From the NCBI RefSeq assembly GCF_006345805.1, contig NC_043000.1, positions 24,800,001 to 24,864,000 of the forward strand: a DNA stretch of 64,000 bases. Direction: 5' to 3'. Positions 4,701 through 57,439 of this stretch are shown piece by piece; positions within the stretch are counted from its first letter, which is position 1, and every line of letters starts with the position of its first letter. Below the pieces are notes generated by a model that saw nothing but the letters and a program-made list of their open reading frames with translations, did not search any database and was not told where the DNA came from. The stretch is from Octopus sinensis (taxonomy: Eukaryota). Both the position numbers and the translations under genes were made by a program.

Positions 4701-4972
4701 TATAAATTATCTAGGAGTTCAGATGTAATGAACACATTTTTCAGCATCAACTAGCAATGAACAAATGTATTTCATATACTGTCATGACATGCCTCCCCTC
4801 TCTCTCAAAAGTAAAGTCAGTGGGTGGATGGTAGAGTTGGTAAGGGCTCCGGACAAAAGTGTTATGCTGTTATGAAATTATGTCTCTTTAAATTTTGAGT
4901 TCAGATCTCATTGAGATTAACTTCCTCCTAATCTTCTGGGGCCAAAAGAAGTATCTGCTTCTGAAGTATTTT

Positions 4973-5170
4973 GTTTTTGGATTTGGTTTGCAAGATTCTT
5001 TATGTGAGTTCGTGTGTTGAAGCATATTCTGTTGTGTCTGGGGAGAGTCATTTTCTCTCCCCAGTCATTTTGTGCTTTATAAAAATAAGAAATAAGTGGA
5101 AATTTTACCAGTGAGTGTGTTAAATTATAGGCACAAAAAGAAAATGACTCTCCCCAGACACAACAGAACA
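4973..5170 (-). mobile_element. Fold-back non-autonomous element, PLE-like anatomy
   Basis: Exact 15-bp TSD CTTCTGAAGTATTTT (4958-4972, 5171-5185). Inverted arms TTCTGTTGTGTCTGGGGAGAGTCATTTTCT / AGAAAATGACTCTCCCCAGACACAACAGAA. An unpaired 52-nt tail lies at 4973-5024. Confidence 0.8.
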
Positions 5171-5377
5171 CTTCTGAAGTATTTTTTTTCTAATTACTTA
5201 TATTTGTTAAATCCAAAACTTCTGGTTCTGAGAGCTTAATGAATTTAGTTCATTAAAGACACACTAAGCAGCAATGATTATGATAAAGCTGTGTACATTC
5301 ATATTTAACATGCTCATTGAAAGACCTCCGCAGTGGAAACTGTCTCAAGAAAGTGAAATTCTCCTTGTACATAATAT

Positions 5378-5607
5378 ATTTCTTTACAGCCCACAAAAGG
5401 CTAAACATAGAGGGGACAAACAAGGACAGACAAAGGGTTTAAGTCGTTACATCGACCCCAGTATGAAACTGGTACTTTATTTATCGACACCGAAAGGATG
5501 AAAGGCAAAGTTGACCTTGGCGGAATTTGAACTCAGAACGTAACGACAGACAAAATACGACTACACATTTCGTCTGGCACGCTAACGTTTCTGCCAGCTC
5601 GCCGCCT
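5378..5607 (-). mobile_element. tRNA-derived SINE family B (Meta-domain-like core)
   Basis: Minus strand reads GGCGGCGAGCTGGCAGAAACGTTAG...GAGTTCAAATTCCGCC (A/B boxes), then GCCTTTCATCCTTTCGG..TCGATAAA...GTACCAG. 13-bp TSD TTGTACA(T/C)AATAT. Confidence 0.9.
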
Positions 5608-6184
5608 TTGTACACAATATGTGTAAAAACACATCATGTTGCTGTTTATATATATATATATATATATGAACAGGAGTCCTTAGTGGGCTATGAATGACCT
5701 GTTTTGTCTCTGTAACTAATGATGTATAACGATGCAGAAATATCATACAGTCCAATGATACCATTTATAGCCCAGCTTAGAAACATTTCGTGCACACTAT
5801 CTATGTGGAGGATTTCTCTCTCAAGACACTTTCTGAAGTGAAGGCCTTTCCATGTTTTAGTGTACACAGCTTTATTTTGACAAGTTTTAACTGCTATGAG
5901 ACATGAAATATTTAATGTTTAGAGACACTGTCCTTCATCAGAGAGAGAGAGAGAAGAGAGTGGGGGGGAGAGAGAAACAGGCAAAGGCTGTGGAGTTGTC
6001 AGTTTTGTTGTAAGCCAACAAATGATATCAAAATCATTAGGACACAACATTAAACATTAAAAACCACATTAAAGAAAATACTGATGCCACATAATGAAAC
6101 CAAAATGTTATTTATAATATCAACAATATCAAGTTGTTCTGAAATTGATGATGAATTCTGTAGATTCTTCCAGATCCTTTAGAG

Positions 6185-6378
6185 CAGTGGTTCTCAACTG
6201 CTACCCCCAGGGATGCATGCAACCCTCCAGCATCCTTTCAATGATCCCTGATGTTCTTCCCTCTATAAACATAATATTTTTTCCAAACTGACTTGCATTC
6301 TACTTTTTTTGGTGTGATCCCCTAAAAAAATCCATGTTTTGGATCAGGCATCGATATTAAAACGGTTGAGAACCACTA
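6185..6378. mobile_element. hAT (Charlie/MER5-like) MITE
   Basis: TIRs CAGTGGTTCTCAAC / GTTGAGAACCACTA. The TSD is only partly conserved. Confidence 0.7.
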
Positions 6379-6976
6379 GTACAGAGAAAGGAACCTAGCT
6401 CTGAGTAAATTTAAATGACTTTACTATTGCTTCAGAATGGACTACAGCAATGGTACAACCAATGTTAATTGTAATTACACAGAGTAAACAAAATCTAATT
6501 ATTTGTCTTGCTTGCCGAATCAATTCATCACACTTAAGTTGAAAAATCAAAAATTGTTTGTAATTTAATGAAGGGTGGTACCAATAATCCAAAATAATTG
6601 TCTGAGAATATTATTCTCACTGGATGTTTAAAGACGAAAGCCATGCTAACTACAATGGCTCTCACACTACTAAGTATTGATTAAATTAAGCCAGGGAAGT
6701 TTATTAATAGATTCATAATTAAGCAAATATTTATTACATTTCAAATTGCGAAACTACACATCTACACACTTGCACAACGTATATAACATACACATGAGAA
6801 AGTTTGAAAGAGTCGCGTTGGAGAATTTGAACATTAGCAATTGAAATAGAATTCTACAGCATAGAATCATATGCAAAATAGATAAGAATCATCTCAAAGT
6901 TCTTTATTCAAGTTTAGCTTTCCTTGTCCTTGAAATTATTCTTAAATAAGAAGTAGGTCTCCTGCTTCGTCATGTA

Positions 6977-6977
6977 A

Positions 6978-7021
<44 letters not shown>

Positions 7022-7093
7022 TAATAATAAAAATAAAAATAATAATAATAAAAATAAAAATAATAATAATAATAATGATGATGATAATGATGA
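6977..7093. repeat. (AAT)n/(GAT)n microsatellite
   Basis: Direct reading. Confidence 0.95.
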
Positions 7094-8471
7094 TAGTATG
7101 TGGCGGGAGAGAAAGACTGTGTGGGTGTGAGTGTGAGAAACAGCCAGAGAAAGGGAGGGAGGGAGGGAGGGAGAGAGAAAGGGGAGAGGGGGAGTGGGAG
7201 CAGAGAGAGAGAGAGAGAGAGAAAAAGAGAGTGAGTGAGAGGAGTTTGAGATTTTTAGTTGCAGAACAGGTCCATCCAGAAAGCTGTCTTACAAAATGAG
7301 TTTGTAATTGTTGTTGAGACTCCCACCGATCTTCGCTCGAGTAATCATTCGATAAAAGAAGTCTATGTCCTTATTGTAGGCATATTGTCATAACATTTTA
7401 ATAGTTCAAAAAAAAAGAAGAAAAATTAAAAGCAACAGAAAACATGAAAAACTACATTGGTTCACATTTTTGAAATTTTTGAGGGTCGTTTGGTTAGTAT
7501 ATCAACAGGTTGGGAGAATGCACAGAAATTCTCTTATAAGAGTTGAATTGTTTGTTGTCTATGTCTCGCCCTTTGAAATTTCTTACCAGCATGAGGCCTT
7601 TACAGGGTGAAATATAGTCTCCAATATGAGAAATAAAAAACAACTTACTTTCACATGTTTGAGCAAATAGAAAAATACATCTACATGTCTGCTAACAATA
7701 ACAAAAAAATTTTTAAAGACTATAAAATAAGGACAAAACAAAGAAAAATCAACAATAACTGCCTGTATGTGGTTGGCAGACATGTGGGAAATGTTGCTCA
7801 AATTACAGTCAATCATCTTTTTCTTTTTAGCTTATTCATTTCAGTCATTAGACTGTGGCCAAGCTGGGGCACTGCCTTCAGGAATTTTTTGATGAATAAA
7901 TAGACCCCAGTACTTATTTTTACCTTTCAAGTCTATCAGTCTCTTTTGCTAAACTGCTAAGTTAAAGGGACATAAACACACCAGCACCAGCTGTTAAGCA
8001 GTGGTGGGGGTCAAACACAGACACAAAGACACACAAACACACACCCGACAGGCTTCTTTTAGTTTCCATACACCAAACCCACTCACAAGGTTTTGGTTGA
8101 CTCGAGACTATAGTAGAAGACACTTGCTCAATGTGCCACTCAGTAGAAGGCACTTGCTTCTTACCATACAAACATGCCTACGAAAAGGAAAAAGATGGGA
8201 CAGTCATTGCCGGAATGCCTTTGATCATAGGTCTGCTCAATCAAAACCAACTTGGGGTTAAAGCAACAAAAGCCATCAAACACAAATTAACAAATGTTAA
8301 GAAGACAATGATCTCCTGCACAGACACATAGATAGGAGTTAATATTGGTCTCAGATGTATAAGAGAGGTGTCGTATGATATGTGAATATGTGTGCATGTT
8401 ACATATATTGAAAGATGTGATCAGCCCATGCACGGATATTAAATGATGGTGCACATATATATATATATATA

Positions 8472-8842
8472 CTAGCAGTATCGCCCGGCGTTGCTCAGGT
8501 TTGTAAGGGAAATAACTATAAAGCATTTTTAGAGAGTTATAGCCAAAAAATAGCAAAAAAATGGAAAAAAATGATGCTAAATTTTTTTAGTTAAAAAAGG
8601 TGGAGTTGCGTCCCCTAGACAGTTTGCGGTTTGTGTTTCTGATTCTCGACCCCATGTCGAATTTATCGATTTTTTTCAGAACTGGGGGAACTTTTCAAAA
8701 CTTTCGCTGCGTTAGTTTTGATTTATGACATTGGGCTATGTGTGTGTCAAGTTTCATCAGAATCGGTTGAAAGCCGTGGTCAGGGTGAGGGTACAAGCAA
8801 ACAGACACACAGAAACACGCACAGACAAACTGCCGTTTATAT

Positions 8843-8847
<5 letters not shown>
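8472..8847 (-). mobile_element. Non-autonomous Helitron
   Basis: Minus strand: A|TCTCTATATAAACGGCAG...CCTGAGCAACGCCGGGCGATACTGCTAG|T. This gives a 5' TC, a subterminal GC-rich hairpin, a 3' CTAG, and an A|T target inside (TA)n. Confidence 0.85.
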
Positions 8848-8897
<50 letters not shown>

Positions 8898-8916
8898 ACC
8901 AGTACTATACATACAC

Positions 8917-8962
<46 letters not shown>

Positions 8963-9326
8963 GTATATATGTATAGTGCTGGTACTACATAAAAAGCACC
9001 TGTGCTGGTGCCATGTATAAAGCACCCAGTACACTCTAAAGTGGCTGGCATTAGGAAAGACATCCAGCCACAGAACCCATACCATAACTGGACCCTGAGG
9101 CAGCTCTCTGGCTTGCTAGCTCTGGTCAAACTGTCCAACTCATGCCAACACGGAAAAGGGACATTAAATGATGATGATAATGATTATATATATATATATA
9201 TGGAAGGACTGTAGCTAGACTCCTGGTTCAATAATAGTATGAGTGAGGAGTCTAATGCGGGTCATGTGAGAGTATGTATATGTTAAATAATATGGCAACA
9301 AGCCAAGCCAAGGATTTGGTGTCTTA

Positions 9327-9362
<36 letters not shown>

Positions 9363-9366
<4 letters not shown>

Positions 9367-9695
9367 AATAATGAAGGGTGAAATTAATTAATTTGGAATA
9401 ATTATCAATTACACCAAGTAGTCTTCGGCATGTAAAAGCCTCATTCGAGGAAAATTTAAGTAATACTAAGCAATAAAGGGTTTAGCAACGAATTGCCTTA
9501 CCACATACCGATTTAGAAATAGCAGTCAAAGAGTTATAGCTATTTCTTCTACTAAAAAGGGAGATCTCAGTAAAAACAATTGCTGTTTTTACTGAGATCT
9601 CCCTTTTTAGTAGAAGAAATAGCTATAACTCTTTGACTGCTATTTCTAAATTCGGTATGTGGTAAGGCAATTCGTTGCTAACCCTTTATTGCTTA

Positions 9696-9699
<4 letters not shown>
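9363..9699 (-). mobile_element. Fold-back element: ~116-bp near-perfect palindrome plus ~100-nt one-sided tail, inside (TA)n
   Basis: Arms 9463-9578 and 9584-9699 with a 5-nt loop ATTGC. Unpaired 9363-9462. (TA)n lies on both sides. Confidence 0.8.
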
Positions 9700-9755
<56 letters not shown>

Positions 9756-11530
9756 CAACAACAATAAGTGATTAAGAGAAAGGAAATGGTTAGAACAGAG
9801 AAGTTATACTGAATAATAAATTCAATTCAACAGGAGTTTATCTTTGATTTGTACTTTGAAAAAAAAGAAAAGAAAAAAAAGTATGTAAGATAATCAGAAG
9901 ACGAGGGGGTCAGTGATCTTGATCTTTGTTATGGTCAATGACCCATGACTTTTGCAAGTCCTCTCAGATTGAACTCAGAATGTTAAGAGCTGAAACAAAT
10001 ACTACAAGTCTGATGCCCTAACAATTCAGCCACCCTACTAGACTATTGTTGAAAAAAGGAAAGGATTGCTACAAAATCTACTTTCAATGACAATATTGCA
10101 GAAAGGATTTTTGCAGCAGAATTAGGGAATAATCCTAATTTACTTATCATTAACATAATTTTCAAAAGGATATCGAAATTCTTGGCCTTAAAGCAAGGTC
10201 ACCATATGAAAGCACAAGAATACTTTAATCTTACATAGCTTTAATCATCAAAAGCACAAGAGGTATGAATAAATCTTGACATGATGCTAAATTTAAAAAG
10301 GCTGGTCCCATTGTCTGGAATGGATTGATTGCAAACAATCTTGTTCTGAAGTTCATCAATTAACTTATGTCTATGATTCTTTGAGGTGGTCAGGTTTAGA
10401 ATTTACATGAAATGATCTCCGGAAAAATGAATAAAAGGAAACATATTAAGACAACCTCAAAAGAAATGCTATTTTTATCTATGTCCTCAGCCCTTATCCC
10501 TGAAAGTATAGACTGTGATCCTCATTTGGCAAACTAACGACATATTATCCAGTGCTGTCTTTGAGAAGAAATGGCCAGAATCAACAAAAAGAACTGTGTT
10601 TGGTTTAAATGTTAATAAAGGAGTTTGATTCAAGACAATGGTAGCATGCAGATTTGGAGAAGTATTAATGGGGCTGAATATAAAACGATCTAACGAGTCG
10701 ATGGTTGTAATTTACGCAGTGTTTATTAAAGGAAGCCATTGGCGTAATCATTACCGATGTTTTCTTGATCTCTTTGTGAAATACCAAATATTTCAGTGAT
10801 ATCAGAAAGCGTTGATTTTGACCTTTCCCGACAAGCTCCTAGAATGTCTTTTGAAATTTTCTCTGATAGTGTTCTGTTAATTGATGTAGCACATCTGCCT
10901 TTTTCAAATCAACAATATTCCATCTATTGAATGGAAACTTTGTTATGTCTGATGTGCCATTCACAAATACAATACAAGCACTTCATTGTACTTTGGTATT
11001 TGGATGAAAATATTTCCCATTCTTTATAAACTCAATAATTTCTAAATTAATGCATTCTCGTTAAGAACGAAAAATTGAATATGATAGTTCACTGAACGTG
11101 ATATATATATTTAATGTCAGTGGATTTCTGCTTTCAGTAATGAGTGGGTCTCTTAATGTATGCAAATAAGTCGTTAGAAACCGTTTTTCCACACCCACTG
11201 TGAACAATGCAATGCTATATTACAAGTGTATCTACCTGTGCAAGGCTGTACTGCACATATGGCTGCCTGTCAAATGCTATATTACAGTTTCAACCACCAC
11301 AAGTAGTCTTTGTCATTAACATAAATTTGCAATCAATAAAACCCCTGCAATGGTATTGTCATTTTTGTTTCAGTGACCTTTACAGTTATTGCCATTAGTT
11401 GGTTGCTCAGGCCAAGGTCAGCTCTGATAGAACAATCCAACATTATATTCAAGGTATGTACACTTTTTCAGTGCCAAATAACAGGGGCATTCACCTATCC
11501 AATATCATATTACAGGTATATCTACATATT

Positions 11531-12159
11531 ATAATTTAGGGTATCAAAGAGATACCACCACGCTGGAAATAGCAGCCAAAACTTGACTTTAAAACCACAT
11601 TGAATGTTTATACAGCACCAGGCCACTTGATAAGATCGATATTTAAATTAATGATCTTATCCTTATTTATGTAAATTTATATATTTATTTCGTCATTATA
11701 TTCACTGTGGTGGTATTTTGACCATATCACACGAGGAGTTATAGGAGGGCAATTCAAACTGGTCGTGTGTGTACGTGCATATAAATGTATGTATACGTTC
11801 ATATATGTAAGTATTTGTATGTTATATGTATATATATGTGTTTTTATGTTACTATCTGTGTATATTCCACAGGAGAGGCAAAGCATTTCTTATGCAGAGC
11901 CAGAAATCCGGGATCTGGAATTATCCAGTAATTTTTTGCCAGTTTATTTTGTCCTTTTGTCTTCTCTCCTGGTGCTGTTTGAACATTTAATGTGGTTTTA
12001 GAGTCAAGTTTTGGCTGCTATTTCCAGCGTGGTGGTATCTCTTAGATATCCTAAATTATAATTTTAATAATAATTATGACCTTTGAAGGTTTTTGTTCCC
12101 ATGCTGGCCACTTGATAAGATCGATATTTAAATTAATGATCTTATCCTTATTTATATAA
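11531..12159 (+). mobile_element. Non-autonomous element with inverted 5' piece and direct terminal repeat (pseudo-LTR-like)
   Basis: Inverted repeat 11528-11622 / 11968-12062. Direct repeat 11621-11675 / 12106-12160. 17-bp TSD AGGTATAT(C/A)TACATATT (11514-11530, 12160-12176). Confidence 0.8.
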
Positions 12160-12282
12160 AGGTATATATACATATTCAGAATTATATTATGGATATATCC
12201 ACCTGTCCAAAATTATATTACAGCTATGTCCACAAATTCAGCAACAACATGAAATAAAAGTCACTAAAACAAGCCAACAAGT

Positions 12283-12533
12283 GGAGGCGCAATGGCCCAG
12301 TGGTTAGGGCAGTGGACTCGTGGTTGTAGGATCGCGGTTTCGATTCCCAGACTGGGCACTGTGAGTGTTTATTGAGCCAAAACACCTAAAAAGCTCCACG
12401 AGGCTCCAGCATGGGGTGGTGGCAATCTCTGCTGTACTCTTTCAGCACTACTTTCTCTCACTCTTTCTTCTGTTGGCCTGCTCGTTGTGACCAGCAATGT
12501 GTAACAACATATGATAGACTGGTTGGTCACGTG
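12283..12533 (+). mobile_element. tRNA-derived SINE (family E)
   Basis: A box TGGCCCAGTGG and B box GGTTTCGATTCC. Exact 18-bp TSD AAAACAAGCCAACAAGTG (12266-12283, 12534-12551). Confidence 0.85.
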
Positions 12534-22975: not shown

Positions 22976-23447
22976 TGAATACCAGAAAGTCTTTCAAATA
23001 TGATGTCATGTTGAGTGTCAGTTCATTAATCTCTGTTGATTCATTGTAGATACAAAACTTCAATATCTTTAACCACAATAAATGTTAACTCAAATGCTGA
23101 TAAAACACCAATCCTCATCTCTCTGCTTCTCTCTTCCATGCCAAAACACAACTGTCTGTATCTCATAAAATGATCTTAGTCTTACACACACATACATATA
23201 CATATATATGCACCATCACACACATTTGCATATATATATATATGCATGTACATGCATACACACATCCATATATAAGTTTGGAAGAACAGGCAGGAGAAAT
23301 AGAACTCAATACAGGAGTGTATATAACTATCTATTATTTTTAATTGGCAGAAAGTTATAAAAGTAACTCGAAGGCCAAGAGTTTCATGCATGGCACTTAT
23401 AAAACTAACAGTTAAAATTAATTGAAAAGTATATGCATATATATATA

Positions 23448-23775
23448 TCATCATCATCGTTTAATGTCAGTTTTCCATGCTAGCACGGGTTGGATGGTTT
23501 GACTGGGGCCTGGGAAGCCAGGAGGCTGCACTAGGCTCCAATCTGATCTGGCAGTGTTTCTACAGCTGGATGTCCTTCCTAACGCCAACCACTCCATGGG
23601 TGTAGTGGGTGCTTTTTACGTGCCACCGGCACAGGTGCCAAGCGAGGCTGGCAGCAGCCACGAACAGTTGGTGCTTTTTACATGCCACCGGCACAGGGAT
23701 CACAACTCCAATTTCCATTTGATATTTATTTTGATGTTGATGTTAAGTACTTGACTCAATAGGTCTCCTCAAGCA
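23448..23775 (-). mobile_element. RTE 3' UTR copy
   Basis: Reverse complement of ~2075-2460. Confidence 0.85.
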
Positions 23776-23816
23776 CATTGTATTGCTTCGGCAATACATA
23801 TTCTAAATGCATATAT

Positions 23817-24003
23817 ATAGGCACAAGAGTGGGTGTGTGGTAAGTAGCGTGTTTACTAACCACATGGTTCTAGGTTCACTCAGTTTCACTACATAGCACT
23901 TTGGGCAAGTGTCTTTTACTATAGCCTCGGGCCAACTAAAGCCTTGTGAGTGAATTTGCTAAACAGAAACTGAAAGAAGCCCATCTTGTATGTATGTGTA
24001 TAC

Positions 24004-24057
<54 letters not shown>

Positions 24058-24262
24058 ATGTTTGTGTGTCTGTGTTTGTCACCCCACCGTCACTTGACAA
24101 CCGATGTTGGTGTCTTTATGTCACCATAACTTAGTGGTTCGGCATAACAGACCAATAGAATAATTATTAGGCTTACAAAGAATAAATCCTGGGGTCAATT
24201 TGTTTGACTAAAGGCGGTGCTCCAGCATGGCCGCACTCAAAAGATTGAAACAAATAAAAGAA
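23817..24262 (+). mobile_element. SINE family A, full length, with expanded (TA)n spacer
   Basis: Matches the family A consensus. An RTE 3' end follows at 24270-24447. Confidence 0.88.
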
Positions 24263-24471
24263 TATATATAAAAAGCACCCACTACACTCATGGAGTGGTT
24301 GGCGTTAGGAAGGGCATCCAGCCGTAGAAACATTGCCAGATCAAACTGGGCCTGGTGCAGCCTTCTGGCTTCCCAGACCCCAGTTGAACCGTCCAACCTA
24401 TGCTAGCATGGAAAGCGGACGCTAAACGATGATGATGATGCTGATGATATATATATATAATACAAAAATGG

Positions 24472-25984: not shown

Positions 25985-28320
25985 GCAGACATTGGTTCAG
26001 ATCATTATAAGGCAGATATGAAGATAGAACTGATGAAAAAATTATTTAAAAAATCTTAAAAAAAAAAAAAGAAAATCAAGGCATTTTTTGATATTGGCAA
26101 AGTTAATGAACATGACATCAGAGAACTCTATCAGTTCAACCTCAAGAACCAATATGCCACATTAAATGCAGAAACAGATATAGATCAATATTGGAGTAAA
26201 TTGAAAAACAATCGAAACAGCTGAAAACAGAAGAGAAAAATGATGATGATGATCATCATCATATGAATCATTGTCATCATCATTTAAAGTTCACTTTCCC
26301 ATGCTTGCATGAATCAGATAGAATTTGTCTAGCTCGATTCTCTACAGTCAGATGCCTTTCCTGTCACCAACTCTCAGATGTTTACAAGCAAGGTAATATT
26401 TCCCGTAGGCAGACATGTTTTTCCATGGAAGACAGAAAGACAGAAATGTAAAAACATCACTTGTTTATAGCCATCTCATGTCGTCGGGATAAGGTTACAT
26501 ACACACACAAACACGTTTATTCTTAAACAAGGTGTCTGAAGACAGTAAAGAATGAAAAATGAAAGACTAGAAATGAAAGACTAGAATTACATCAAAGAAG
26601 TGCTAAAATTAACCTAAATAATTTTTTTCAAACATTTTGGTCCCAAACAAGACTTGAGGTCAATGTAGTTTAAGGGATTACAAAGAGTGAAAAGAAGGGG
26701 CCTATAAATTTAAAAGATATTGATAGACAAAAAACTTACAGAGGGAAACAGGAGGATGATAGTGAGTTCCAGAGAACAGCACTTTGAGGAAATAAGCTAT
26801 TAGAATAAAAGGACTTATGACTAACAGAAAGCTCAACAGAGAAATGATGTGCCTGGGAAGAGGAGAGGGTGACACATGTAAAGGTCTTGGCAGAGTACTA
26901 GAGCAGAAAGCTAATCAGAACAACGATGGAAATGCTTATAGAAAAGACACAATGAAGATACAATCTGTAAATGAGTTAAAGATTCCAAACTAATAGAAAA
27001 GGAGAGGAGGACCCATCAACTTGATTTTGAATTCTGAATGAAGCAAGTTAGGACACTCAGAGGAGGTATTAGCCTAAACATGAAGGCAGTATTTAACACA
27101 AGGTCAACTATTTAAATAACCATAAGATAGATGATAATGAAATTACATTAGGAGAGGTTTAGAAAGTTTTGGAATCATTGGAAAATTACAAAGCTACAGA
27201 TGCAGACAGAATCTTAGGCGAATTTGCTAATATAGAGAAGCCAGGGTTACTAATCAAAGCAACATGATCTGGTGAGATGAGGAAACAGCAAAAGAATGAA
27301 AAAGAGCGGTCATTGTGAAACTGCCAAAAGCAATTCCAAGGACTGTCAAGCTGGAGGATAGTCTCTCTCTCTGGTGACCAGTAGACTGGTTAGTGGTTGT
27401 GTTAAACAGAATCAGGGGAGAAATTCCAAGGGACCAACAATCTGGATTTTGTGGAATGAGATCGAGCACTGTTGCAATTTTTGAATTGTGATGCATAAAT
27501 GAAAATTCTTGTGAATACAAGTCAATGGCAGACATTAACTTTGTCAGTTTCCTGAAGGTTTTAAACTGCAAACAGAAATATTCTTTGGGAAGCCCTCAGA
27601 AGTTATGAAATACCTAAATAATTAATAAACAGACATAACATAACACATTTGGAGTGGTTGGCATTAGGAAGGACATCCAGCTGTAGAAACTTTGCCAAAT
27701 CAGATTGGAGCCTGGTGCAGCCTTCTGGCTTGCCAGCCCTCAGTCAAACCATCCAATGCATGACAGCATGGAAAGTGGATGTTAAACGACGATAATGATG
27801 ATGATGATGATCATCATCGTTTAACGTCCGCTTTACATGCTAGCATGGGTTGGACGATTTGACTGAGGTCTGGCAAACCAGATGGCTGCACAATACTCCA
27901 AACTGATCTGGCAGATTGGAGTCTGCCAGATCAGATTGATGAACAAAAGCAATATATAAATTTCCAAGTGTTATGTATAAGTTAATGAAGCAATAAACAT
28001 TTTGCTGTTGAGACTTGGGCTAAACAGGGATATGTTTTGTTTCCATTCCTCTTTAATAGTGTTTCAGATTTTGGACTGATGCAGGTTGACTGAGGAAGAA
28101 CACCAAGCCACAGGCTTATTATGGGACAATGACAAGATGTTGTATGAAAAGGATTTTGCTGATAATGTTGCTTTAACTAGAAAAGATGAAAATAGTTTGT
28201 AAACCCGAATGGAATGGAACAAAAATACTTGGCATGGCACAAAACAGACTAGAGGTAGATGTGGTAAGAATGAATGACCCAACTTGCAGAGCAACAAGAG
28301 ATGGATTAAAGACTATTGAT
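25985..28320 (+). mobile_element. Old fragmented RTE LINE interrupted by younger inserts
   Basis: Collinear remnants: IGSDH (~25990), KATDADRI..EF and W*DEETAKE*KRAVIVKLPK (27190-27330), QQSGF (~27435), INFVSF.K (~27535), KQGYVLFPFLF (~28020), DFADNVAL (~28152). Confidence 0.7.
26620..27130 (-). mobile_element. CR1/L2-group LINE 3' fragment
   Basis: Minus-strand translation FYSNSLFPQSAVLWNSLSSSCFP resembles the SFFPRxxxLWNSLP C-terminal motif. Confidence 0.65.
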
Positions 28321-36372: not shown

Positions 36373-36577
36373 TAGTATGATAGGTATTATGACAAGACCT
36401 TACACTAAGTGGTATGATAAGACTATTAAAGGTATTAAGATATGAGGATGCATTATGACAAGAATATGATAGGCATTGTGACACATCTATCTAATGCATT
36501 GAGATAAGACTAAATGTAGCATTAAGACAAGACCATGCTACACACATGGCAAGATTGACAAACTAAGGCATGACAAT

Positions 36578-36742
36578 TATTTACATTTGATGGATATTTG
36601 TCTTGATCTTGTTTGTTGTTAACACACTTTGGCTGATATACCTCCCAGCCTTCATCAGGTGTCTTGGGGAAATTTCAAACCTGGGTTCTCAGTCCAAAGG
36701 TATTTTTCGATGTTATTATTATTATTATTGTTCAGGCAGTGA

Positions 36743-36781
<39 letters not shown>

Positions 36782-36961
36782 TAATAACATCGAAAAATAC
36801 TTTAGGAATGAGAACCCAGGTTGGAAGTTTCCCCAAGACACCTGATGAAGGCTTGAGAGTATATCAGCCGAAATGTTGTGTTAACAATAAACAAGATGAG
36901 GACAAATATCCGTCAAATGTAAATAAAGTACATAATTCCTCATCTCTTAAATATAGAACTG
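36578..36961 (+). mobile_element. Fold-back copy of hammerhead-containing family (PLE-like)
   Basis: Exact 14-bp TSD TAAGGCATGACAAT (36564-36577, 36962-36975). ~160-bp inverted arms. A ~35-nt tail occurs only on the right arm. Confidence 0.9.
36837..36882 (+). ncRNA. Minimal type I hammerhead ribozyme (slightly decayed)
   Basis: Stem I GACAC/GTGTT; core CTGATGA plus extra A; stem II GGCT/AGCC; GAAA; then TGTT (inferred ancestral CGTT, palindromic stem III). Confidence 0.7.
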
Positions 36962-37989
36962 TAAGGCATGACAATGTGAGACATTAAGCTAAGACTATGT
37001 GAGGCATCATAGAAAGAAATATGAAAAGTTTTGGCAATGACGAAACGGTTAAGACTTGTAAAAATGATTTTTGCAGAATAAAATCTGTGATTATGGCAAC
37101 AGTTAATCTCCTCTACATTCCACCATCAAAAGGAAAAAAAATGAAAAAAACAAAAACAAAAAAAAATGGTATAATTGCTGAAGGAATCAGATTCTTGCTA
37201 CAACACAATGTGACTGAATTTATTCTCAAGGATTATGTGAGTCAGCTTGTTTTGTTAATTTGATTAAAAAAAAGACTTAAAAAGACTGGAACTAAAAGAT
37301 AGAGTGCAACAGAAGGTGATACGATTCCTACAAAACATATTTGGCAAGCAATCATCAGAGCATCGTACATTGTATAAACACATTGGAATATATTCAATGA
37401 AGGGGATCTGAAGGGTAATGCATGCATTGAATTCATTCAACAGCTTGAAATGATTTCTAAATTTCAGATGATTGCATAAATAGATAAATAAAATGGGAAA
37501 GAGAATTTGATCTTGATGTTACCATTTTGTCATATGTTGAGAGAAGCAAATATATAAATGTCATTTTGGGGGAAAAAACATGCATTATCAAAATGTCTTT
37601 ATTTTAATGAGAAAAATGGATCACTTCCAGGCAATATGTAAATCCACAAAATAAACAGGTGAATAAATAAAAAACGTTTGAGGGAATTGAGCATGAAGAT
37701 TCCGCTAGTACTTGTGAAGTCAGGATATAATAATACTTCAGCGATCAATGTGAAAAACTCAATAATGTTAGCGCTGAGATGCAAGTTGATTGACACTAAC
37801 AGTCTGGTAACTGTAATATCTCGGAACTGAAAGGATCTGAAGCTGAAACAATTTCATGGATCACTCACGGAAATTTAGAGAAAGTTTGATGCCTTAATGG
37901 AAACTGATAAGGGGGAAACAAACAAACAAACACACACACACACACACACTAAACAGGTTGTGTTGTTGTAGGTGGTTGTTGTAAGTGAA

Positions 37990-39207: not shown

Positions 39208-40819
39208 GCTTCAGTAGGGTCTTTTAGAAGTTCATTCCAGATGGAGCACACAGGCTTCTCTTTTAGTGGTTATGCAAAAGGTAAGATGGAAATTTCAAGA
39301 GATTTTGAAGTAGGTGTAAATAAATTTGTTCAAATTCTTGTCTATTAACAGACTTGGCAGTGTGGTGAAGAAACCTGCTTTGCAACCAATTGGTTCCAGG
39401 TTCAGTCCCACTGAGTGGCACCTTGGGCAAGTGTTTCTACTAAAGCACAGGGCTTGTGAGTGAATTTAGTAGGCAGAAACTGTATGGAAGCCCATCATAT
39501 ACATGTGTGTGAATATGTGTACCTTTGTGTTTTGTATCTACCCCTCCACCATTGCTTGACAATTGATGTTGGTTTATGTAACATAGAAGTTCAGCAAAAG
39601 CGACTAATAAAATAATTTGCTTGACTAAACCCTTCATGGCAGTGCTCCAGCATGGTTGCAATCCAATGACAGAAACAAGTAAAAGATAAAAGACAACTGC
39701 ATCTTCTGAATCAATAATTCACTTTCCGGCATAACGTATTTTGCTAAATTAGATTAAAAGGGGACATTATGATAAATATACCTGCAGGTCCTTTGAAGAT
39801 GGACTCGACTTTCATATGGAATTAAAATAAAATAATATATATGAACATATACAATAATGATAAAATAATAAATACCAAGCAAAGCATGGAACGGTTCGTC
39901 ATTTTTTGTTGCATTAAAGATCAATAAAACTTCATATATATATATATATATATGAAGAATACACATGTAATGATTTTATAATATAAAAATTAGCAAATTT
40001 TTATCATGGAATGGTTTGCTTTTGTTGTATTTAAGACCAATAAAATTTTTCAAAAATTTCAGTACATGGACATACATACAGACAGAGGAAGGATGAGTTA
40101 AAACAAATAATATAAATATTTATTTGGAAAAAGGCAACAGGCAAATTAGAATGGACCATATGAATTAAAACCATAGTCCGCACTATGCTTTGAAAAGCAA
40201 TTGAATGCATTATTAGAAATGCCATGAATAATAACAAAGTTTATCCAGATTATACATGGATGGTGCTAAAAGTGTGGGAAAATCTATGTATCAAGGTAGA
40301 TTAGATCATAAAAATATAGGAATTATCAGGTAAGATGATCAGTCAGACTAAATCTGTGTTAGAGACACCGATGAGCTGTATTTTTCTTTTCTTTTATACG
40401 GATTGATGAAGAAGTGTATACAAATAGATTGCCCTTTGGCAGTGAGAATAATGGATGTGAAACCCATCAAAAGACAAAAAGCAATATAACATCAAAACAA
40501 GGATACACACAAACACACATATATATGACAGGCTTATTTCAGTTTACATCTATGAAATCCATTTAAAAGGCTTTGGTCAGCCCAAGGCTTTAGTAGAAGA
40601 CACTTGCTCATGGTGCTGTGCAATCAGACTGAACTCAAAACCAGATGACTGAGAAGCAAACTTCTTAAGCCCACAACCACACAGTAATGATAAAAGCTAT
40701 ACCTGATGATGCACAGTATGGCACAGTATGTTAGCTGATACCTGACATTCGCTAGAATTACTTCACACAATGCCCACATGGCCTAAAGAAATTACAACAT
40801 GAAACAGATGCACCAACGG

Positions 40820-51946: not shown

Positions 51947-52007
<61 letters not shown>

Positions 52008-52131: not shown

Positions 52132-52133
<2 letters not shown>

Positions 52134-52766: not shown

Positions 52767-52980
52767 CTTTTCTGTTCTAGGCACAAGGCCAGAAATATTT
52801 GGGGAGGGTGGAGCAGTTGTTTAGATTGACCAAAGTGCCCAACAGGTATTCATTTTATTGACTCCAAAAGGATGAAAGATAAAGTCGACCTTGGCGGAAT
52901 TTGAACTCAGAACATAAAGACAGACGAAATACTGCTAAGCATTTCACCCACTGTGCTAACGTTTCTGCCAGCTTGCTGCC
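52767..52980 (-). mobile_element. SINE family B variant
   Basis: Exact 17-bp TSD TTGGATGCAGCCATATT (52750-52766, 52981-52997). Confidence 0.9.
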
Positions 52981-53479
52981 TTGGATGCAGCCATATTGGA
53001 ATGAAAAGTCCTTAAGTAATGCCATCTTTTATCTTTTACTTGTCTTATTCATTAGATTGTGCCCATGCTGGGGCACTGCCTTGAAGAATATTTAGTTGAA
53101 TGAATTAACTCCAGAGCTTTTTTTAAAGCCTGGTACTTATCCTACTGGTCTCTTTTACCGAACTGACAAGTTATAGGGATGTAAACAAACCAACACTGGC
53201 TGTTAAGCAGAGGTGGGGGACGAGATACACATGCATGCACACACGCACACACATACTTTCAGTTTCTGTCTACCAAATCTACTCAAGGCTTAGGTGGACC
53301 TGGTTCTATAGCTGACGACACTTGCCCAAGGTGCCACACAGTGGGACTGAACCTGGAACCATGAGGTTGGGAAGCAAACTACTTACTGCATAACCACACC
53401 ATACTTAAAATTATGAAATGATTCGCTGGGATAATACTCATACAACTGACTTTGATAATATTTAGGGAACAAGGTATGC

Positions 53480-53855
53480 TCTTTTACTTGTTTTAGTCAT
53501 TTGACTGCGGCCATGCTGGAGCACTGCCTTTAGTCAAGCAAATCGACCCCAGGACTTATTCTTTGTAAGCCTAGTACTATTCTATCGGTCTCTTTTGCCG
53601 AACTGCTAAGTTATGGGGATGTAAACACACCACCATCGGTTATCAAGCAATGTTGGAGGGACAAACACAGACACGCAAATATACACACACACACATACAT
53701 ATACATATATATGACGGGCTTCTTTCAGTTTCCGTCTACCAAATCCACTCACAAGGCTATAGTAGAAGACACTTGCCCAAGGTGCCACGCAGTGGGACTG
53801 AACCCGGAACCATGTGGTTCGTAAGCAAGCAAGCTATTTACCACACAGCCACTCC
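53480..53855 (-). mobile_element. SINE family A, full length
   Basis: Matches the consensus and carries a private AAGC duplication. An older copy precedes it at ~53030-53402. Confidence 0.9.
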
Positions 53856-54296
53856 TAAGCCTATATATATTTTTTTTTTTTAATATTCTAGTCATAGCAG
53901 CTGTCATTGGGTAAAGGAATTATTGCTAGAAATAATTGATGCAAATGGGTGCGAAATGCTAAAACATTTTGTCAAAAATAATTTCTTACACAAAATTCTT
54001 CATCATTATTTTGTGTCTGAAATTTCATGCTGGTTTAGATTGGACAGTATGTCATGGCCCCAGTTAGTTTTTATTTGCAGTTCCTGACCCTATGATGGAT
54101 GAGAGGACCATATTCCATTCCTAAGTTTCATTCTTGCTATAGGTTTCTGTAGCCAGATGTCCTTCTTAATGTCTTGTCCCTGGCAAGACTTAAGTGTTCT
54201 CTATCTGACATTGCATTTGTTTGTACAAACCAGCATGGCAGATAGGAGGAAAGAAGAAAAGACTGATGAAAGGGAAGGAACAAATGGCAAGGTGAC

Positions 54297-54351
<55 letters not shown>

Positions 54352-55019
54352 TCTTTATTCACCATAAGGTTGAGAAAAAGAGCCCCCCCCCCATATGTGA
54401 ACAGACAAAACAAACATTGGGGTCAGGTTATCGAATGAATAAACAAACAATTAAAATATATACATTGTTATATTTTGGAATGGTCACATTGCCAGTTTAG
54501 CCAATAAAAACACAAGCACTATATATTTGGTGTTATTTTGCTTCAGTGATATTTATTTTTTACATTAATCTTAACCTTATTTCGGATAGAGAACACTTAA
54601 GTCTTGCCAGGGACAACACATTAGGAAGGACATCTGTCTACAGAAACCTATAGCAAGAATGAAACTTAGGAATGGAATATGGTCCTCTCATCCATCATAG
54701 GGGCAGGAACTGCAAATAAAAACTAACTGGGGCCATGACATACTGTCCAATCTAAACCAGCATGAAAATTCAGACACAAAATAACGATGGAGAATTTTAT
54801 GTAAGAAATTATTTTTGATAAAATGTTTTAGCATTTTGCACCCATTTGCATCAATTATTTCTAGCAATAATTCCTTTACCCAATGACAGTTGCTATGACT
54901 AGAATATATAAAAAAAAAAAAAAAAATATAGGCGTAGGAGTGGCTGTGTGGTAAATAGCTTGCTTGCTTACGAACCACATGGTTCCGGGTTCAGTCCCAC
55001 TGCATGGCACCTTGGGCAA
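53773..55019. repeat. ~437-bp inverted duplication (53773-54208 vs 54582-55019)
   Basis: Base-by-base reverse-complement match with about 14 substitutions by eye, plus poly-T length change. Confidence 0.95.
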
Positions 55020-55511
55020 ATATATAGTGCGTGTGTTTTTATTGGCTAAACTGGCAATATGACCATTCCGAAATATAACAATATCTGTTTCAACACCCGA
55101 CTTCACATAAAAAATCTTGCACAACAAATATTTAAAATATATACAATTAAATGAGAATGAGTGATTTACAAAAAATGAAGCGGAGGACTCGGTTGACCCC
55201 ACAAACCACATACTCACACTGAAGACTTTGCTTTCTCCTTTTTTATATTCTCGTTTAGACAGGTTCTTTCACTCACAGCATACTTGCTATAGACTTCCAT
55301 CTTTTACAAAACACACTTTGCGACAGGCATTTCTTCTCCAGCCTTATTTTCCATTTCATGTGGAAAATGAAAAAGTCGATTAGCTTGAGACTGGAGATGA
55401 ACATGCCTGTTGCAATTCCTTTCACTCTCATCTTCCATTCTACCTCTTTTGCAACAGCAACTACCGAGAGAAAACAGGCTCGCTCCTCCCTATTCAGGGA
55501 GGTTGGCAGAA
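54349..55511 (-). mobile_element. 5'-truncated Tx1/L1-clade LINE in a (GA)n/(TC)n microsatellite, split by a later insertion
   Basis: ORF end 55273-55510: ACFLSVVAVAKEVEWKMRVKG...FFIFHMKWKIRLEKKCLS..VFCKRW. The 3' UTR has AATAAA (54354-54359, minus). (GA)n lies at 54299-54348 and 55512-55524. Confidence 0.7.
54465..55131 (+). mobile_element. Fold-back (PLE-like) insertion carrying captured flanking DNA
   Basis: 14-bp TSD TTAAAATATATACA (54451-54464, 55132-55145). Inverted 66-bp arms 54464-54529 / 55017-55082. Tail 55083-55131. Confidence 0.8.
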
Positions 55512-56384
55512 AGAGAGAGAGAGACAACCAGATAAGAAAATTAGAGTGATAAATGCAAATATGTCCAATTTATACTAGTTGAGTAGAACATTTTTTTGAT
55601 TGTTTTGTTTTTGTCAAGGAATTTGGAAAAAAAAATCTAATAAGGACTATTTAATTTTGTAACATCAATTCTAAAAGTAATGAAAAACTCTGGTAATCCT
55701 AATCTCAATTCTGGTAATCACAAGACTAAATCTTTTAGATTGAATATCACTGACTAATTGAAAAGAACTCAAATTTAGTTTTATTTCTCACTAAATACAT
55801 TATCAGCTTTGTCCGTAATTATTAATACACAAGGCAATTGAAACTGAAGGTCTTAATTGGTAATTGATAAGTAAATAGAAATTGGCAGGTACAAAATGAA
55901 AGTAACACCTGTTCGATAAGTTCTTTGTCTAATTACAGAGCGTCTAGCAACCTAAGTCTGAAAATAAGCACATAAAACCTAAAATCTTATATATGTTGGG
56001 CTCATGTATCATCAGTCTTATAAGAGCAGAGAAAGAAAAGATTTAGATGTAGTCATCTAATATCTTATGAATATATGAAACTAAGATTGAAATTTGTTTT
56101 TTCTTTTTAAATTTGAAAAGTAAAATTTATGATCATTTTAACCTTTTAGCGTTTAGATTTCTCTGTTAAATGTAAAGCTTGCTTATTCACATTGTTTTGA
56201 ATTAATTATGCATATTCTTGCAGCTTTGAGATTTTGACGATGTGACTTATTTTTAGAACAATATTTTCTTTTTAAATTTCACATTTAGAAAAGAAAAAAC
56301 TTACGACTATTTTAAAACAATTATGCATTCTTTACATTATTTATATTATTTACATTTGACGGATATTTGTCCTCATCTTGTTTG

Positions 56385-56434
56385 TTGTTAACACAACATT
56401 TCAGCTGATATACCCTCCAGCCTTCTTCAGGTGT
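56385..56434 (-). ncRNA. Minimal hammerhead ribozyme copy (decayed)
   Basis: Minus strand GACAC CTGAAGA A GGCTG GAGGGTATAT CAGCT GAAA TGTT GTGTT. Confidence 0.6.
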
Positions 56435-56518
56435 CTTGGGGAAATTTCAAACCCGGGTTCTCATTCCTAAAGTATTTTTTGAGGATGATGATGGTGATGA
56501 TGATGTTGTTGTTGTTCA

Positions 56519-56591
56519 GGTCACTGTTTGGAATCGAACTCAGAATCTTGGGGTTAGTAGCCCGCACTCTTAACCACTACACCATATGCCC
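56519..56591 (-). promoter_or_regulatory. tRNA-derived head / Pol III internal promoter (not a functional tRNA)
   Basis: GGGCATATGGTGTAGTGGTTAAGAGTGCGGGCTACTAACCCCAAGATTCTGAGTTCGATTCCAAACAGTGACC. A box TGGTGTAGTGG, anticodon-like loop CTACTAA, B box GAGTTCGATTCC. The acceptor stem is imperfect. Confidence 0.8.
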
Positions 56592-57439
56592 ATCATGTTA
56601 ACAACAAACAAGATGAGGAAAATATCCGTCGAATGTAAATAATGTACATAATTCCTCATCTCTTAAATTTAGAACTGTATTATGCATTCATTTAGAAACT
56701 TTAAAATTTGTTAATTATCTGAAGATATAATGAAATTTAAAAAAAATTAATAAACTTACAGCTCAAAATATTATGTATTTTAACATTTGCATGAATGAAT
56801 AATATATAAACTGATAACCGTATCTTATTTTTTTGGGCATCATACACTAATATCCCTGTGGCTCAATGAAAAATCTAACTCCAAAGTTTTTTGATATGTT
56901 ACTATAGTAACCAACAGTTCCTTCCAATAAATACCTGTTAACCCAAATGATGGCATTGCATGTTTAAACTCCTAATTCCAACATGATCGATATATTCAAC
57001 AAAGCTATCTATATAGTTCTACCTAACTGTAAAGTTACAGCAGATCAATCACCACAAAGGTTTGGTGATAGATCAGCAACTATGGATTGGTCGGGAATCA
57101 TACAGCTGAAGATCTTTACATTGAGATGTTTGAAGCTCGGTGAAATCTATTTAACAACCTGCAGTCCAGTCCGTATGGACAAATGATCGACCTCTGGACT
57201 ATCTCTCATATGCTGAGCTTCGCTTTTATTTTGCAGTCTTTTTCTCAGATGTATAAAGCAGCAATGGGTGAATTATATTCCACCAAATACACATGCGCAT
57301 GGAAGAAAAGATGTTAAATGATGGTGATGATTATGACGTTCATATAAACAAATATATATATATATACATGCACTCACAAATATATATATATATATATATA
57401 TACACACTCACAAATATATATATATATATATACACACTC

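What the first reader, a model, noticed from the sequence alone, without database searches (positions are those of the whole stretch)
4958..56689. Six insertions from five families share one asymmetric fold-back anatomy
Seen: 4973-5170 (TSD 15 bp, tail 52 nt); 9363-9699 (in (TA)n, tail ~100 nt); 11531-12159 (TSD 17); 36578-36961 (TSD 14, tail ~35); 54465-55131 (TSD 14, tail 49); 56331-56678 (TSD 11, tail ~32). In each, one arm abuts the target directly and the other is separated from it by an unpaired tail. The inner junction differs between the two copies of the same family. They are not MITEs, because the inverted repeats are not both terminal and the TSDs are long and variable. Known: Penelope insertions often carry an inverted 5' pLTR copy without the short 3' tail. 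Inference: a diverse, abundant set of non-autonomous PLE derivatives (about one per 10 kb here) that repeat annotators would probably mislabel as unknown or DNA elements.
Basis: partly seen in the sequence, partly recalled or inferred. Interest (0 to 1): 0.72.

Follow-up and report, generated by a model that had tools for sequence, protein, structure and literature searches.

The report
Penelope-style fold-back retroelement insertions
Six hairpin-shaped repeats in this large animal genome (likely an octopus) are each one insertion event with a "tail" at only one end, which is the known footprint of Penelope-like retrotransposons; one is the cut-off end of such an element, and the others are likely short non-coding riders on its enzymes, so the pattern is real but mostly known.

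Summary
All six fold-backs are at the stated coordinates. Five have exact or near-exact target-site duplications of 11-17 bp; the sixth lies in (TA)n. In each, one arm abuts the target and the other carries a 26-100 nt tail.

- **el1** is the 5'-truncated 3' end of an abundant element that encodes RT plus a C-terminal GIY-YIG nuclease, so it is a true Penelope-like element (PLE). Of 10 copies of that element, 6 end with this tail and 4 end without it.
- **el5** belongs to a ~399-nt non-coding family whose tail is 83-88% identical to that PLE tail.
- **el2, el3, el4 and el6** (three families) show only the PLE insertion signature. No parent PLE was found for them.

In genome samples, the second arm of a fold-back lacked the tail in 17 of 17, 16 of 16 and 11 of 12 cases. 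It ended at a fixed site each time, while the inner junctions varied.

Rfam detected no hammerhead or tRNA in any of these elements. The anatomy is already published for PLEs, and this scan has noted it before on other DNA of this genome.

The SINE-like family with the PLE footprint is the part most worth following up.

The parts
4973..5170 (-). el1: 5'-truncated 3' stub of an RT/GIY-YIG Penelope-like element. The direct copy is 4973-5056 (parent 3'-end positions 217-300). The inverted tail-less copy is 5081-5168 (positions 158-246). A 24-nt filler lies at 5057-5080.
4973..5026 (-). el1 tail, about 54 nt and AC-rich. It is absent from the inverted arm.
   Evidence: 4 of 10 parent copies end exactly where it starts
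4958..4972 (.). el1 TSD, left copy (CTTCTGAAGTATTTT)
5171..5185 (.). el1 TSD, right copy
9363..9699 (-). el2 (family F2): head-to-head dimer of a 218-nt non-coding unit inside (TA)n. The direct copy is 9363-9580 and the inverted tail-less copy is 9584-9699.
9363..9462 (-). el2 tail, 100 nt
   Evidence: tail-less arms end at unit position 112-127 in 17 of 17 places
11531..12159 (+). el3 (family F3): inverted tail-less arm at 11531-11622 (unit positions 348-442), followed by a full 539-bp unit at 11621-12159. The unit starts and ends with the same ~52-bp direct repeat, in the manner of a pLTR.
12063..12159 (+). el3 tail, 97 nt
   Evidence: 9 of 39 genome copies end at query 530-562 and the other 30 at 621-629
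11514..11530 (.). el3 TSD, left copy (17 bp, 1 mismatch)
12160..12176 (.). el3 TSD, right copy
36578..36961 (+). el4 (family F4, SINE-like): inverted tail-less arm, an (ATT)n/(AAT)n centre, then a direct arm with tail.
36927..36961 (+). el4 tail, 35 nt. It pairs with the sequence just upstream to form a 9-bp stem (z = -2.6).
36564..36577 (.). el4 TSD, left copy (TAAGGCATGACAAT)
36962..36975 (.). el4 TSD, right copy
54465..55131 (+). el5 (family F5, full unit ~399 nt): inverted tail-less arm at 54465-54585 (family positions 218-339), a filler, then a direct arm at 55017-55131 (positions 274 to the end).
54586..55016 (.). el5 filler: an inverted 95.5% duplicate of the nearby flank at 53773-54211. 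The duplicated stretch is a 350-bp repeat, a poly(A) run and the head of a neighbouring SINE.
55083..55131 (+). el5 tail, 49 nt; 83-88% identical to the tail of el1's parent PLE.
54451..54464 (.). el5 TSD, left copy (TTAAAATATATACA)
55132..55145 (.). el5 TSD, right copy
56331..56678 (+). el6 (family F4): a full-length inverted SINE-like copy at 56331-56585 (head, microsatellite and body, no tail), then a 5'-truncated direct copy with tail at 56596-56678.
56653..56678 (+). el6 tail, about 26-32 nt
56320..56330 (.). el6 TSD, left copy (ATTATGCATTC)
56679..56689 (.). el6 TSD, right copy
2330..2611 (.). Older fold-back of a sixth family with a (GAT)n centre. No TSD was found. It probably has the same anatomy, but this was not verified.
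27693..27913 (.). Second fold-back of the sixth family
23437..24456 (.). Third fold-back of the sixth family. Its arms (23437-23618 and 24269-24456) are split by a later SINE insertion.

Best explanation
Each of the six fold-backs is a single retrotransposition event bounded by one target-site duplication, and it was likely made by Penelope-like element (PLE) enzymes that would prime DNA synthesis from both cut target strands, starting at two fixed sites on the RNA that lie 26-100 nt apart, so that one arm keeps the 'tail' and the inverted arm lacks it.

**Shown**
- The anatomy and the TSDs.
- el1 is the 3' end of an RT + GIY-YIG element.
- That element has two alternative 3' ends, separated by exactly the tail.
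- el5's family shares that tail.
- In genome samples of F2, F4 and F5, the second arm is tail-less and ends at a fixed site, while the inner junction varies.

**Inferred**
- F2, F3 and F4 use PLE enzymes in trans.
- The two arms are two cDNAs primed on opposite strands, each 5'-truncated on its own and then joined head to head. At the joint there can be filler or copied flanking DNA, as in el5.
- The one-tail rule reflects a fixed geometry of a dimeric enzyme on its template.
For: **1. Single events**
- TSDs of 11-17 bp flank the whole fold-back in 5 of 6 window elements.
- TSDs of 9-19 bp flank 9 of 16 genome fold-backs of F4. With shifted boundaries, 0 of 26 controls reached 9 bp.

**2. PLE parent of el1**
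- A GIY-YIG search gave 5029 candidate sites.
- el1's arm plus tail matches the 3' terminus of one family at 92-99%.
- The ORF end and that terminus are colinear in 13 non-self places and in 10 of 10 loci chosen by protein similarity.
- One 428-aa ORF has GIY-YIG. It also aligns to the RT motifs of an RVT_1 + GIY-YIG ORF, E = 3e-8, including RYVDD aligned to RYLDD.

**3. Optional tail**
- 6 of those 10 copies end with the tail and 4 end at its first base.
- F3 copies end at query position 621-629 (30 of 39) or 530-562 (9 of 39).

**4. Shared tail**
- F5's tail matches the PLE tail at 83% over 53 nt (E = 2e-7) and 88% over 41 nt (E = 4e-8).

**5. One tail per fold-back, fixed outer end, variable junction**
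- F2: 17 of 17 places. Tail-less arms end at unit position 112-127, and there are at least 10 different junction strings.
- F4: 16 of 16. Tail-less arms end at 170-180 of 205.
- F5: 11 of 12. Tail-less arms end at position 62-75.

**6. Other PLE traits**
- F3 forms partial tandems with a 52-bp terminal repeat.
- Targets are (TA)n or AT-rich for F2, F5 and a second PLE family.

**7. Literature (passages seen)**
- Inverted 5'-truncated copy, one-sided 30-40 bp tail and TSD are typical of EN+ PLEs (PMC3846280, PMC8557442).
- A purified PLE protein cuts and extends both strands and starts reverse transcription at two internal sites that delimit the tail. The authors call this signature unique to PLEs (PMC11167929).
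Against: - No parent PLE was found for F2, F3 or F4 among 50 GIY-YIG loci (30 checked with tail-only queries) and 20 extra 3-kb flanks.
- Rfam finds no hammerhead in the window at gathering score or at E <= 10, in six representative loci, or in el4 alone. Only hand-parsed, non-canonical cores were seen.
- The F2 and F3 tails (~100 nt) are far longer than the published 30-40 bp.
- In vitro, the published enzyme showed no difference in start site between top and bottom strands (PMC11167929, passage). The strict one-tail rule therefore needs an extra assumption.
- The genome samples are the tool's 'best candidates', which may favour loci with two arms, so the fold-back fractions (16 of 29; 11 of 29) are probably inflated.
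- No TSD of 8 bp or more was found in 10 of 10 F4 monomers. This is unexplained.
Confidence: 0.7

Rival explanations
1. The PLE enzymes are the same, but the mechanism differs. A single cDNA folds back and primes on itself (snap-back or self-priming), as proposed for palindromic PLE junctions, instead of two cDNAs being primed on the two target strands.
For: - PMC3846280 (discussion passage) interprets inverted PLE structures with palindromes at the junction as self-priming.
- el2 and some F2 dimers have almost no filler at the centre, and the 5' end of the unit is itself palindromic (gcaattgc).
Against: - Self-priming gives no reason for the inverted arm to stop at one fixed site just before the tail in 17 of 17, 16 of 16 and 11 of 12 cases.
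- Many junctions carry filler or unequal truncations.
- el5 has 431 nt of foreign sequence between its arms.
- The same fixed site is also an alternative 3' end of single copies.
Confidence: 0.15
2. F2, F3 and F4 are ordinary LINE-dependent SINEs or short retroposons, and their inverted arms arise by a twin-priming-like accident of LINE integration. Only el1 and el5 would then be PLE-related.
For: - No PLE parent was found for these three families.
- F4 has a pol III-type head judged by eye.
- LINEs are abundant in octopus genomes (PMC13282606, PMC8967140, passages).
- L1 twin priming gives 5' inversions (recalled: Ostertag and Kazazian 2001).
Against: - Twin priming inverts an upstream segment without duplicating it. 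Here both arms copy the same segment.
- There is no poly(A) or short-repeat 3' end. The window's abundant LINE-type SINE does end in (TAAAAGA)-like repeats and shows no one-sided tail and no TSD around its inverted pairs.
- The two-3'-end and one-tail pattern is the same as in the proven PLE family.
Confidence: 0.12
3. The fold-backs are DNA-transposon MITEs or fold-back elements, or two unrelated insertions that landed head to head by chance.
For: - The genome is very repeat-dense.
- Inverted pairs of the abundant SINE occur in the window without TSDs.
Against: - TSDs are long, variable and enclose both arms.
- The inverted repeats are not both terminal.
- Copies are 5'-truncated with a fixed 3' end.
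- el1's parent encodes RT and GIY-YIG.
- The tail asymmetry is systematic.
Confidence: 0.02

Closest known systems
Insertions of endonuclease-bearing Penelope-like elements with an inverted 5'-truncated pLTR copy and a one-sided 30-40 bp 'tail' (Adineta vaga Pen families, PMC3846280; general scheme in PMC8557442, Fig. 2 legend)
   Same: - TSD, then inverted tail-less copy, then direct copy with tail, then TSD.
- TSD length varies.
- Partial tandems with terminal repeats (F3).
- The tail is optional at the ends of single copies.
- Host DNA is captured between repeats (el5).
   Different: - Most elements here are a few hundred bases long, with no ORF.
- Tails range from 26 to 100 nt.
- No Rfam-detectable hammerhead.
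- One family (F4) carries a pol III-type head.
Poseidon PLE of Anolis carolinensis reconstituted in vitro (PMC11167929)
   Same: - Two internal reverse-transcription start sites delimit the tail.
- Both target strands are cut and extended.
- AT-rich targets.
- An AC-rich region at the start site (the el1 and el5 tails are AC-rich).
   Different: - In vitro there was no strand difference in start site, whereas here exactly one arm per fold-back has the tail.
- That paper does not discuss inverted copies, in the passages I saw.
Non-autonomous PLE derivatives: putative non-autonomous Chlamys elements such as MRC1 (PMC8557442) and animal non-LTR retrozymes (bioRxiv 10.64898/2026.07.22.740005, abstract only)
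   Same: - Short and non-coding.
- 3' similarity to autonomous PLEs (F5).
- pLTR-like repeats and head-to-tail copies (F3).
   Different: - Retrozymes are defined by hammerheads and tandem arrays. No hammerhead was detected here, and most copies are dispersed singles or head-to-head dimers.
Schistosoma Sm-alpha SINE-like elements with hammerheads
   Same: A short element with a pol III-type front end that may ride on PLE machinery, as F4 may.
   Different: - Sm-alpha has a canonical active hammerhead.
- F4's CUGAUGA...GAAA stretch does not score with Rfam.
L1 twin priming (recalled: Ostertag and Kazazian 2001)
   Same: Both target strands would prime cDNA synthesis, giving a 5' inverted segment inside one TSD.
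   Different: - Twin priming inverts a different, upstream segment.
- It has no fixed second start site.
- It ends in poly(A).

Membership tests
EN+ Penelope-like element (autonomous) | [quoted passage not shown] | tested here: met
   This applies to the parent of el1 only.
- GIY-YIG lies in the orientation of the terminus in several copies.
- A 428-aa ORF aligns to the RT motifs of an RVT_1 + GIY-YIG ORF, E = 3e-8.
- RVT_1 itself did not reach Pfam significance in this decayed family.
- No such ORF lies in the window: 59 of 70 ORFs of 85 aa or more were scanned.
PLE insertion signature | An optional short 3' extension ('tail') at one end only, and two alternative 3' ends | tested here: met
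   - All six window elements carry it.
- Parent PLE: 6 of 10 copies with the tail, 4 of 10 without.
- F3: 30 versus 9 of 39.
- Second arm tail-less in 17 of 17 (F2), 16 of 16 (F4) and 11 of 12 (F5).
- The F2 and F3 tails (~100 nt) exceed the published 30-40 bp.
PLE insertion signature | An adjacent inverted 5'-truncated copy with a variable junction, inside one variable-length TSD | tested here: met
PLE insertion signature | pLTRs, that is, partial tandem organisation | tested here: inconclusive
   Met for F3: 52-bp terminal repeat and overlapping head-to-tail hits. Not examined for F2, F4 or F5.
PLE / retrozyme | A hammerhead ribozyme in the terminal repeat | tested here: not met
   No Rfam hammerhead at gathering score or at E <= 10. 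My simple descriptor gave 2 hits in the window against 1.5 expected, and neither lies in the six elements. Core-like strings in F4, F5 and one PLE family were parsed by hand only. Rfam may not model the minimal PLE hammerheads, and Naiad PLEs lack canonical hammerheads (PMC8557442).
PLE-dependent non-autonomous element | 3' end homologous to that of an autonomous PLE in the same genome | tested here: inconclusive
   Met for F5. Not met for F2, F3 or F4 in the 70 PLE flanks compared, out of more than 5000 candidate sites.
tRNA-derived SINE | Head derived from a tRNA, with internal A and B boxes | tested here: inconclusive
   - The F4 head reads TGGCGTAGTGG ... AGTTCGATTCC, which fits the recalled A/B box consensus by eye.
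- ARAGORN finds no tRNA in the window or in 13 loci.
- The Rfam tRNA model gives no hit on two heads at E <= 10.
LINE-dependent SINE | 3' end of poly(A) or short tandem repeats, or homology to a LINE 3' end | tested here: not met
   The six elements end in unique tails. The window's abundant SINE, by contrast, ends in (TAAAAGA)-like repeats. Homology to LINE ends was not searched genome-wide.
MITE / fold-back DNA transposon | Both inverted repeats terminal; short TSD of fixed length | tested here: not met
L1-type twin priming product | The inverted segment is a different, upstream part of the element, with no duplication | tested here: not met
   Both arms copy the same segment.

The most novel reading that the evidence does not exclude
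A pol III-type SINE family (F4, more than 1400-4500 candidate copies) and several other short non-coding families are copied by Penelope-like enzymes rather than by LINEs. This would be the first clear SINE-PLE partnership, and would mean that part of the octopus SINE expansion is PLE-driven. The strict rule of one tailed and one tail-less arm, found in dozens of independent insertions, is an in vivo record that PLE integration is a coordinated double target-primed reaction by an enzyme dimer with two fixed start sites on the template.
Probability: 0.4. Interest if true: 0.6.

Novelty: new member of a known kind. Interest (0 to 1): 0.35.

Why it matters
- **Annotation.** Repeat annotators split or mislabel such fold-backs. 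Recognising the PLE footprint (TSD, tail-less inverted arm, variable junction, tailed arm, TSD) allows correct boundaries and classification in cephalopod genomes, where SINEs and 'unknown' repeats make up a large share.
- **Mechanism.** The many young, independently formed dimers are natural data on how PLEs integrate, a step not yet worked out experimentally. F2 is the best case, and it is nearly absent from a related species' contigs.
- **SINE-LINE rule.** If the SINE-like family F4 truly depends on PLE enzymes, the textbook pairing of SINEs with LINEs gains an exception.
- **dsRNA.** Perfect intronic hairpins of 100-250 bp are also potential sources of double-stranded RNA. This was not tested here.

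Tried and rejected
- **Hammerheads.** Rfam gave none on the whole window at gathering score and at E <= 10, on six representative loci, or on el4 alone. My regular-expression descriptor gave chance-level hits outside the elements.
- **tRNA origin of the F4 head.** ARAGORN and Rfam on two heads found nothing.
- **Parent PLE for F2, F3 and F4.** I ran BLAST of the elements and of tail-only queries against 30 GIY-YIG loci, 20 loci of el1's parent family, and 20 further 3-kb downstream flanks. Only el1 and el5 matched. The F2-like hits in L075, L089 and L107 look like separate insertions.
- **Pfam on window ORFs.** No RT or endonuclease was found.
- **Shared 3' RNA structure.** Only F3 (z = -4.3) and F4 (z = -2.6) fold better than shuffles. 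F2 and F5 do not, and the el1 test piece included filler, so it is not valid.
- **TSDs of F4 monomers.** None of 8 bp or more in 10 of 10. By eye there were only 6-7 nt matches in two of them.
- **Expression.** No RNA holder is listed for the el4 stretch.
- **Empty sites.** I laid contigs of four runs on 4800-12300 and on 36300-37250. Short-read contigs break at the repeats, and no bridging empty site was seen among the rows shown.
- **A seventh candidate.** The 16-bp 'TSD' at 35796-36382 was rejected. It is a TA-flanked TIR element inside a minisatellite.
- **Inverted pairs of the abundant SINE** (49572-50033 and 38808-39686). They have no TSD and no one-sided tail, so they are not of this kind.

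Full report
**Setting**

The window is G000:C4:24800001-24864000 of a 2.7-Gb genome in 13516 contigs. Earlier notes of this scan call it an octopus; I did not verify the species. The window is 36% GC. It holds no RT or endonuclease ORF among the 59 ORFs scanned, out of 70 non-low-complexity ORFs of 85 aa or more. It is dense with short repeats.

**Observation**

A script searched for direct repeats that abut one arm and lie up to 130 nt from the other. It found:

| Element | TSD |
|---|---|
| el1 | 15/15 |
| el3 | 17 bp, one mismatch |
| el4 | 14/14 |
| el5 | 14/14 |
| el6 | 11/11 |
| el2 | inside (TA)n, cannot be judged |

Nine other inverted pairs of the window gave nothing of 9 bp or more, except one. 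That one turned out to be a TA-flanked TIR element sitting in a degenerate 23-bp minisatellite. The same minisatellite surrounds el4. However, el4's 14-bp duplication is exact and out of phase with the minisatellite unit, so I keep it as a TSD.

In every element one arm abuts the target, and the other is followed by a tail of about 54, 100, 97, 35, 49 and 26-32 nt.

**Family by family**

- **F1 (el1).**
  - A Pfam GIY-YIG search of the genome gave 5029 candidate sites, 147 of them listed.
  - el1's direct arm plus tail matched the region about 850 nt downstream of one such site, in the same orientation.
  - The ORF end and this terminus are colinear in 13 other places.
  - In 10 of 10 loci picked by protein similarity to the GIY-YIG ORF (10548 candidates), the terminus lies 750-950 nt downstream of the stop, beyond a CA-rich microsatellite stretch. 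It is 94-98% identical to el1.
  - A 428-aa open frame has GIY-YIG. Its N-terminal part aligns to the RT motifs of a canonical RVT_1 + GIY-YIG ORF from another family of the genome, E = 3e-8.
  - el1 is therefore a stub of an autonomous-type PLE. The direct copy covers terminal positions 217-300, the inverted copy covers 158-246, and 24 nt of filler lie between them.
  - Six of the 10 parent copies end with the tail. Four end at its first base.
- **F5 (el5).**
  - The family unit is about 399 nt, with fixed ends, non-coding, with 1732 candidates.
  - Its last ~50 nt are 83-88% identical to the tail of the F1 parent, with no similarity further upstream.
  - The tRNA-like sequence next to el5's direct arm is not part of the family. 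The whole 431-nt interior of el5 is an inverted 95.5% copy of DNA lying 250-690 bp upstream of the insertion site. It is joined to both arms with a few bases of overlap.
  - Of 29 loci found with a monomer query, 11 carry a head-to-head tail-less arm ending at unit position 62-75. One carries a tailed inverted copy 281 nt away. Nearly all sit in (TA)n.
- **F4 (el4, el6).**
  - The full unit has three parts: a head with A- and B-box-like motifs (judged by eye against a recalled consensus), a microsatellite, and a ~190-nt body with a 35-nt tail.
  - ARAGORN and the Rfam tRNA model do not recognise the head.
  - Of 29 loci found with a 140-nt 3' query, 16 are fold-backs, 3 are ambiguous and 10 are single copies.
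  - In 16 of 16 fold-backs the inverted arm ends at position 170-180 of 205, while the direct arm runs to 199-205. The inner ends vary from full length to deep truncation.
  - Nine of the 16 have TSDs of 9-19 bp around the whole structure. Of 26 shifted-boundary controls, none reached 9 bp.
  - Contigs of a related species bridge both junctions of el4, so el4 predates that split.
- **F2 (el2).**
  - The unit is 218 nt.
  - In 17 of 17 distinct places, one arm reaches the end of the tail and the other stops at position 112-127.
  - The central junction differs among copies, with at least 10 different strings, some with filler or truncation to position 9-29. The dimers therefore formed independently.
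  - The family is nearly absent from one related species' contigs, so it is young.
- **F3 (el3).**
  - The unit is 539 bp and begins and ends with the same 52 bp.
  - Genome copies overlap head to tail.
  - 24 of 39 start at the same base.
  - 30 of 39 end at the full 3' end, and 9 of 39 end about 85-100 nt earlier. Inverted arms also end at that earlier point. In one locus the tail sits on the inverted arm instead.

**Mechanism**

Passages of PMC3846280 and PMC8557442 describe exactly this layout for endonuclease-bearing PLEs. PMC11167929 reports three things about a purified PLE protein:
- it cuts and extends both target strands;
- it starts reverse transcription at two internal sites that delimit the tail;
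- it is predicted to be a dimer.

I infer that each fold-back is the product of two target-primed cDNAs, one from each start site. Each is truncated on its own, and they are joined head to head, sometimes with filler or copied flanking DNA.

The fixed outer end of the tail-less arm argues against simple snap-back synthesis.

The strict one-tail rule is not predicted by the in vitro result, which showed no strand difference. It remains partly unexplained.

**Against the reading**

- No parent PLE was found for F2, F3 or F4 among 70 PLE flanks.
- No hammerhead was detected by Rfam.
- The sampling is biased towards best-scoring candidates.

**Novelty**

The anatomy is published, and this scan has reported it several times on other DNA of this genome.

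Five literature searches were run. I saw their listings and read passages of seven papers. None of what I saw states that a pol III-type SINE is mobilised by a PLE. The library lacks most subscription journals, and I opened no supplementary files.

**Verdict**

- These are new members of a known kind.

Noticed in passing
window 54586-55016 and 53773-54211: The 431 nt between the two arms of el5 are an inverted 95.5% duplicate of DNA 250-690 bp upstream of the insertion site. The duplicated stretch is a 350-bp repeat, a poly(A) run and the head of a neighbouring SINE. It looks like flanking DNA or its transcript copied in during integration.
   Followed up: partly
window 2330-2611, 27693-27913, 23437-23618 with 24269-24456: A sixth, older fold-back family with a (GAT)n centre. 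In locus L196 a similar sequence plus (GAT)n sits directly in front of the F4 body, as if 5' modules are swapped at microsatellites.
   Followed up: partly
window 35821-36374: A TIR element with TA flanks, mariner-like by its ends (no Pfam hit), inserted in a degenerate ~23-bp minisatellite that runs to about 37007.
   Followed up: partly
window 53460-53862 and about 15 other copies: The most abundant ~400-nt SINE of the window ends in (TAAAAGA)-like short repeats and has no one-sided tail, which points to a different, LINE-type 3' end.
   Followed up: partly
loci L093, L099, L111: F5 copies lie immediately next to tail-less ends of the F1-parent PLE in 3 of 30 loci of that family. This could be a preference for inserting at PLE termini, or it could be chance.
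   Followed up: no
loci L059, L060, L069 (3' ends): A second, young PLE family (open frames up to 781-883 aa) ends in (TA)n. About 95 nt before its end it carries UUGAUAA-GGUUC...GAACC-GAAAC-AUGU. By hand this resembles the U3-A8 minimal hammerhead variant described in PMC4209133. Rfam does not score it.
   Followed up: partly
window 1082-1399 (+): An open frame with a PHD-finger match (25.1 bits, cut-off 24), probably an exon of the host gene.
   Followed up: no
window 9318-9819 and 8314-8815, contigs of run X18: The F2 family and another repeat at 8314-8815 have almost no depth in one related species, but very high depth in three others. Both are therefore lineage-specific, recent expansions.
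   Followed up: no
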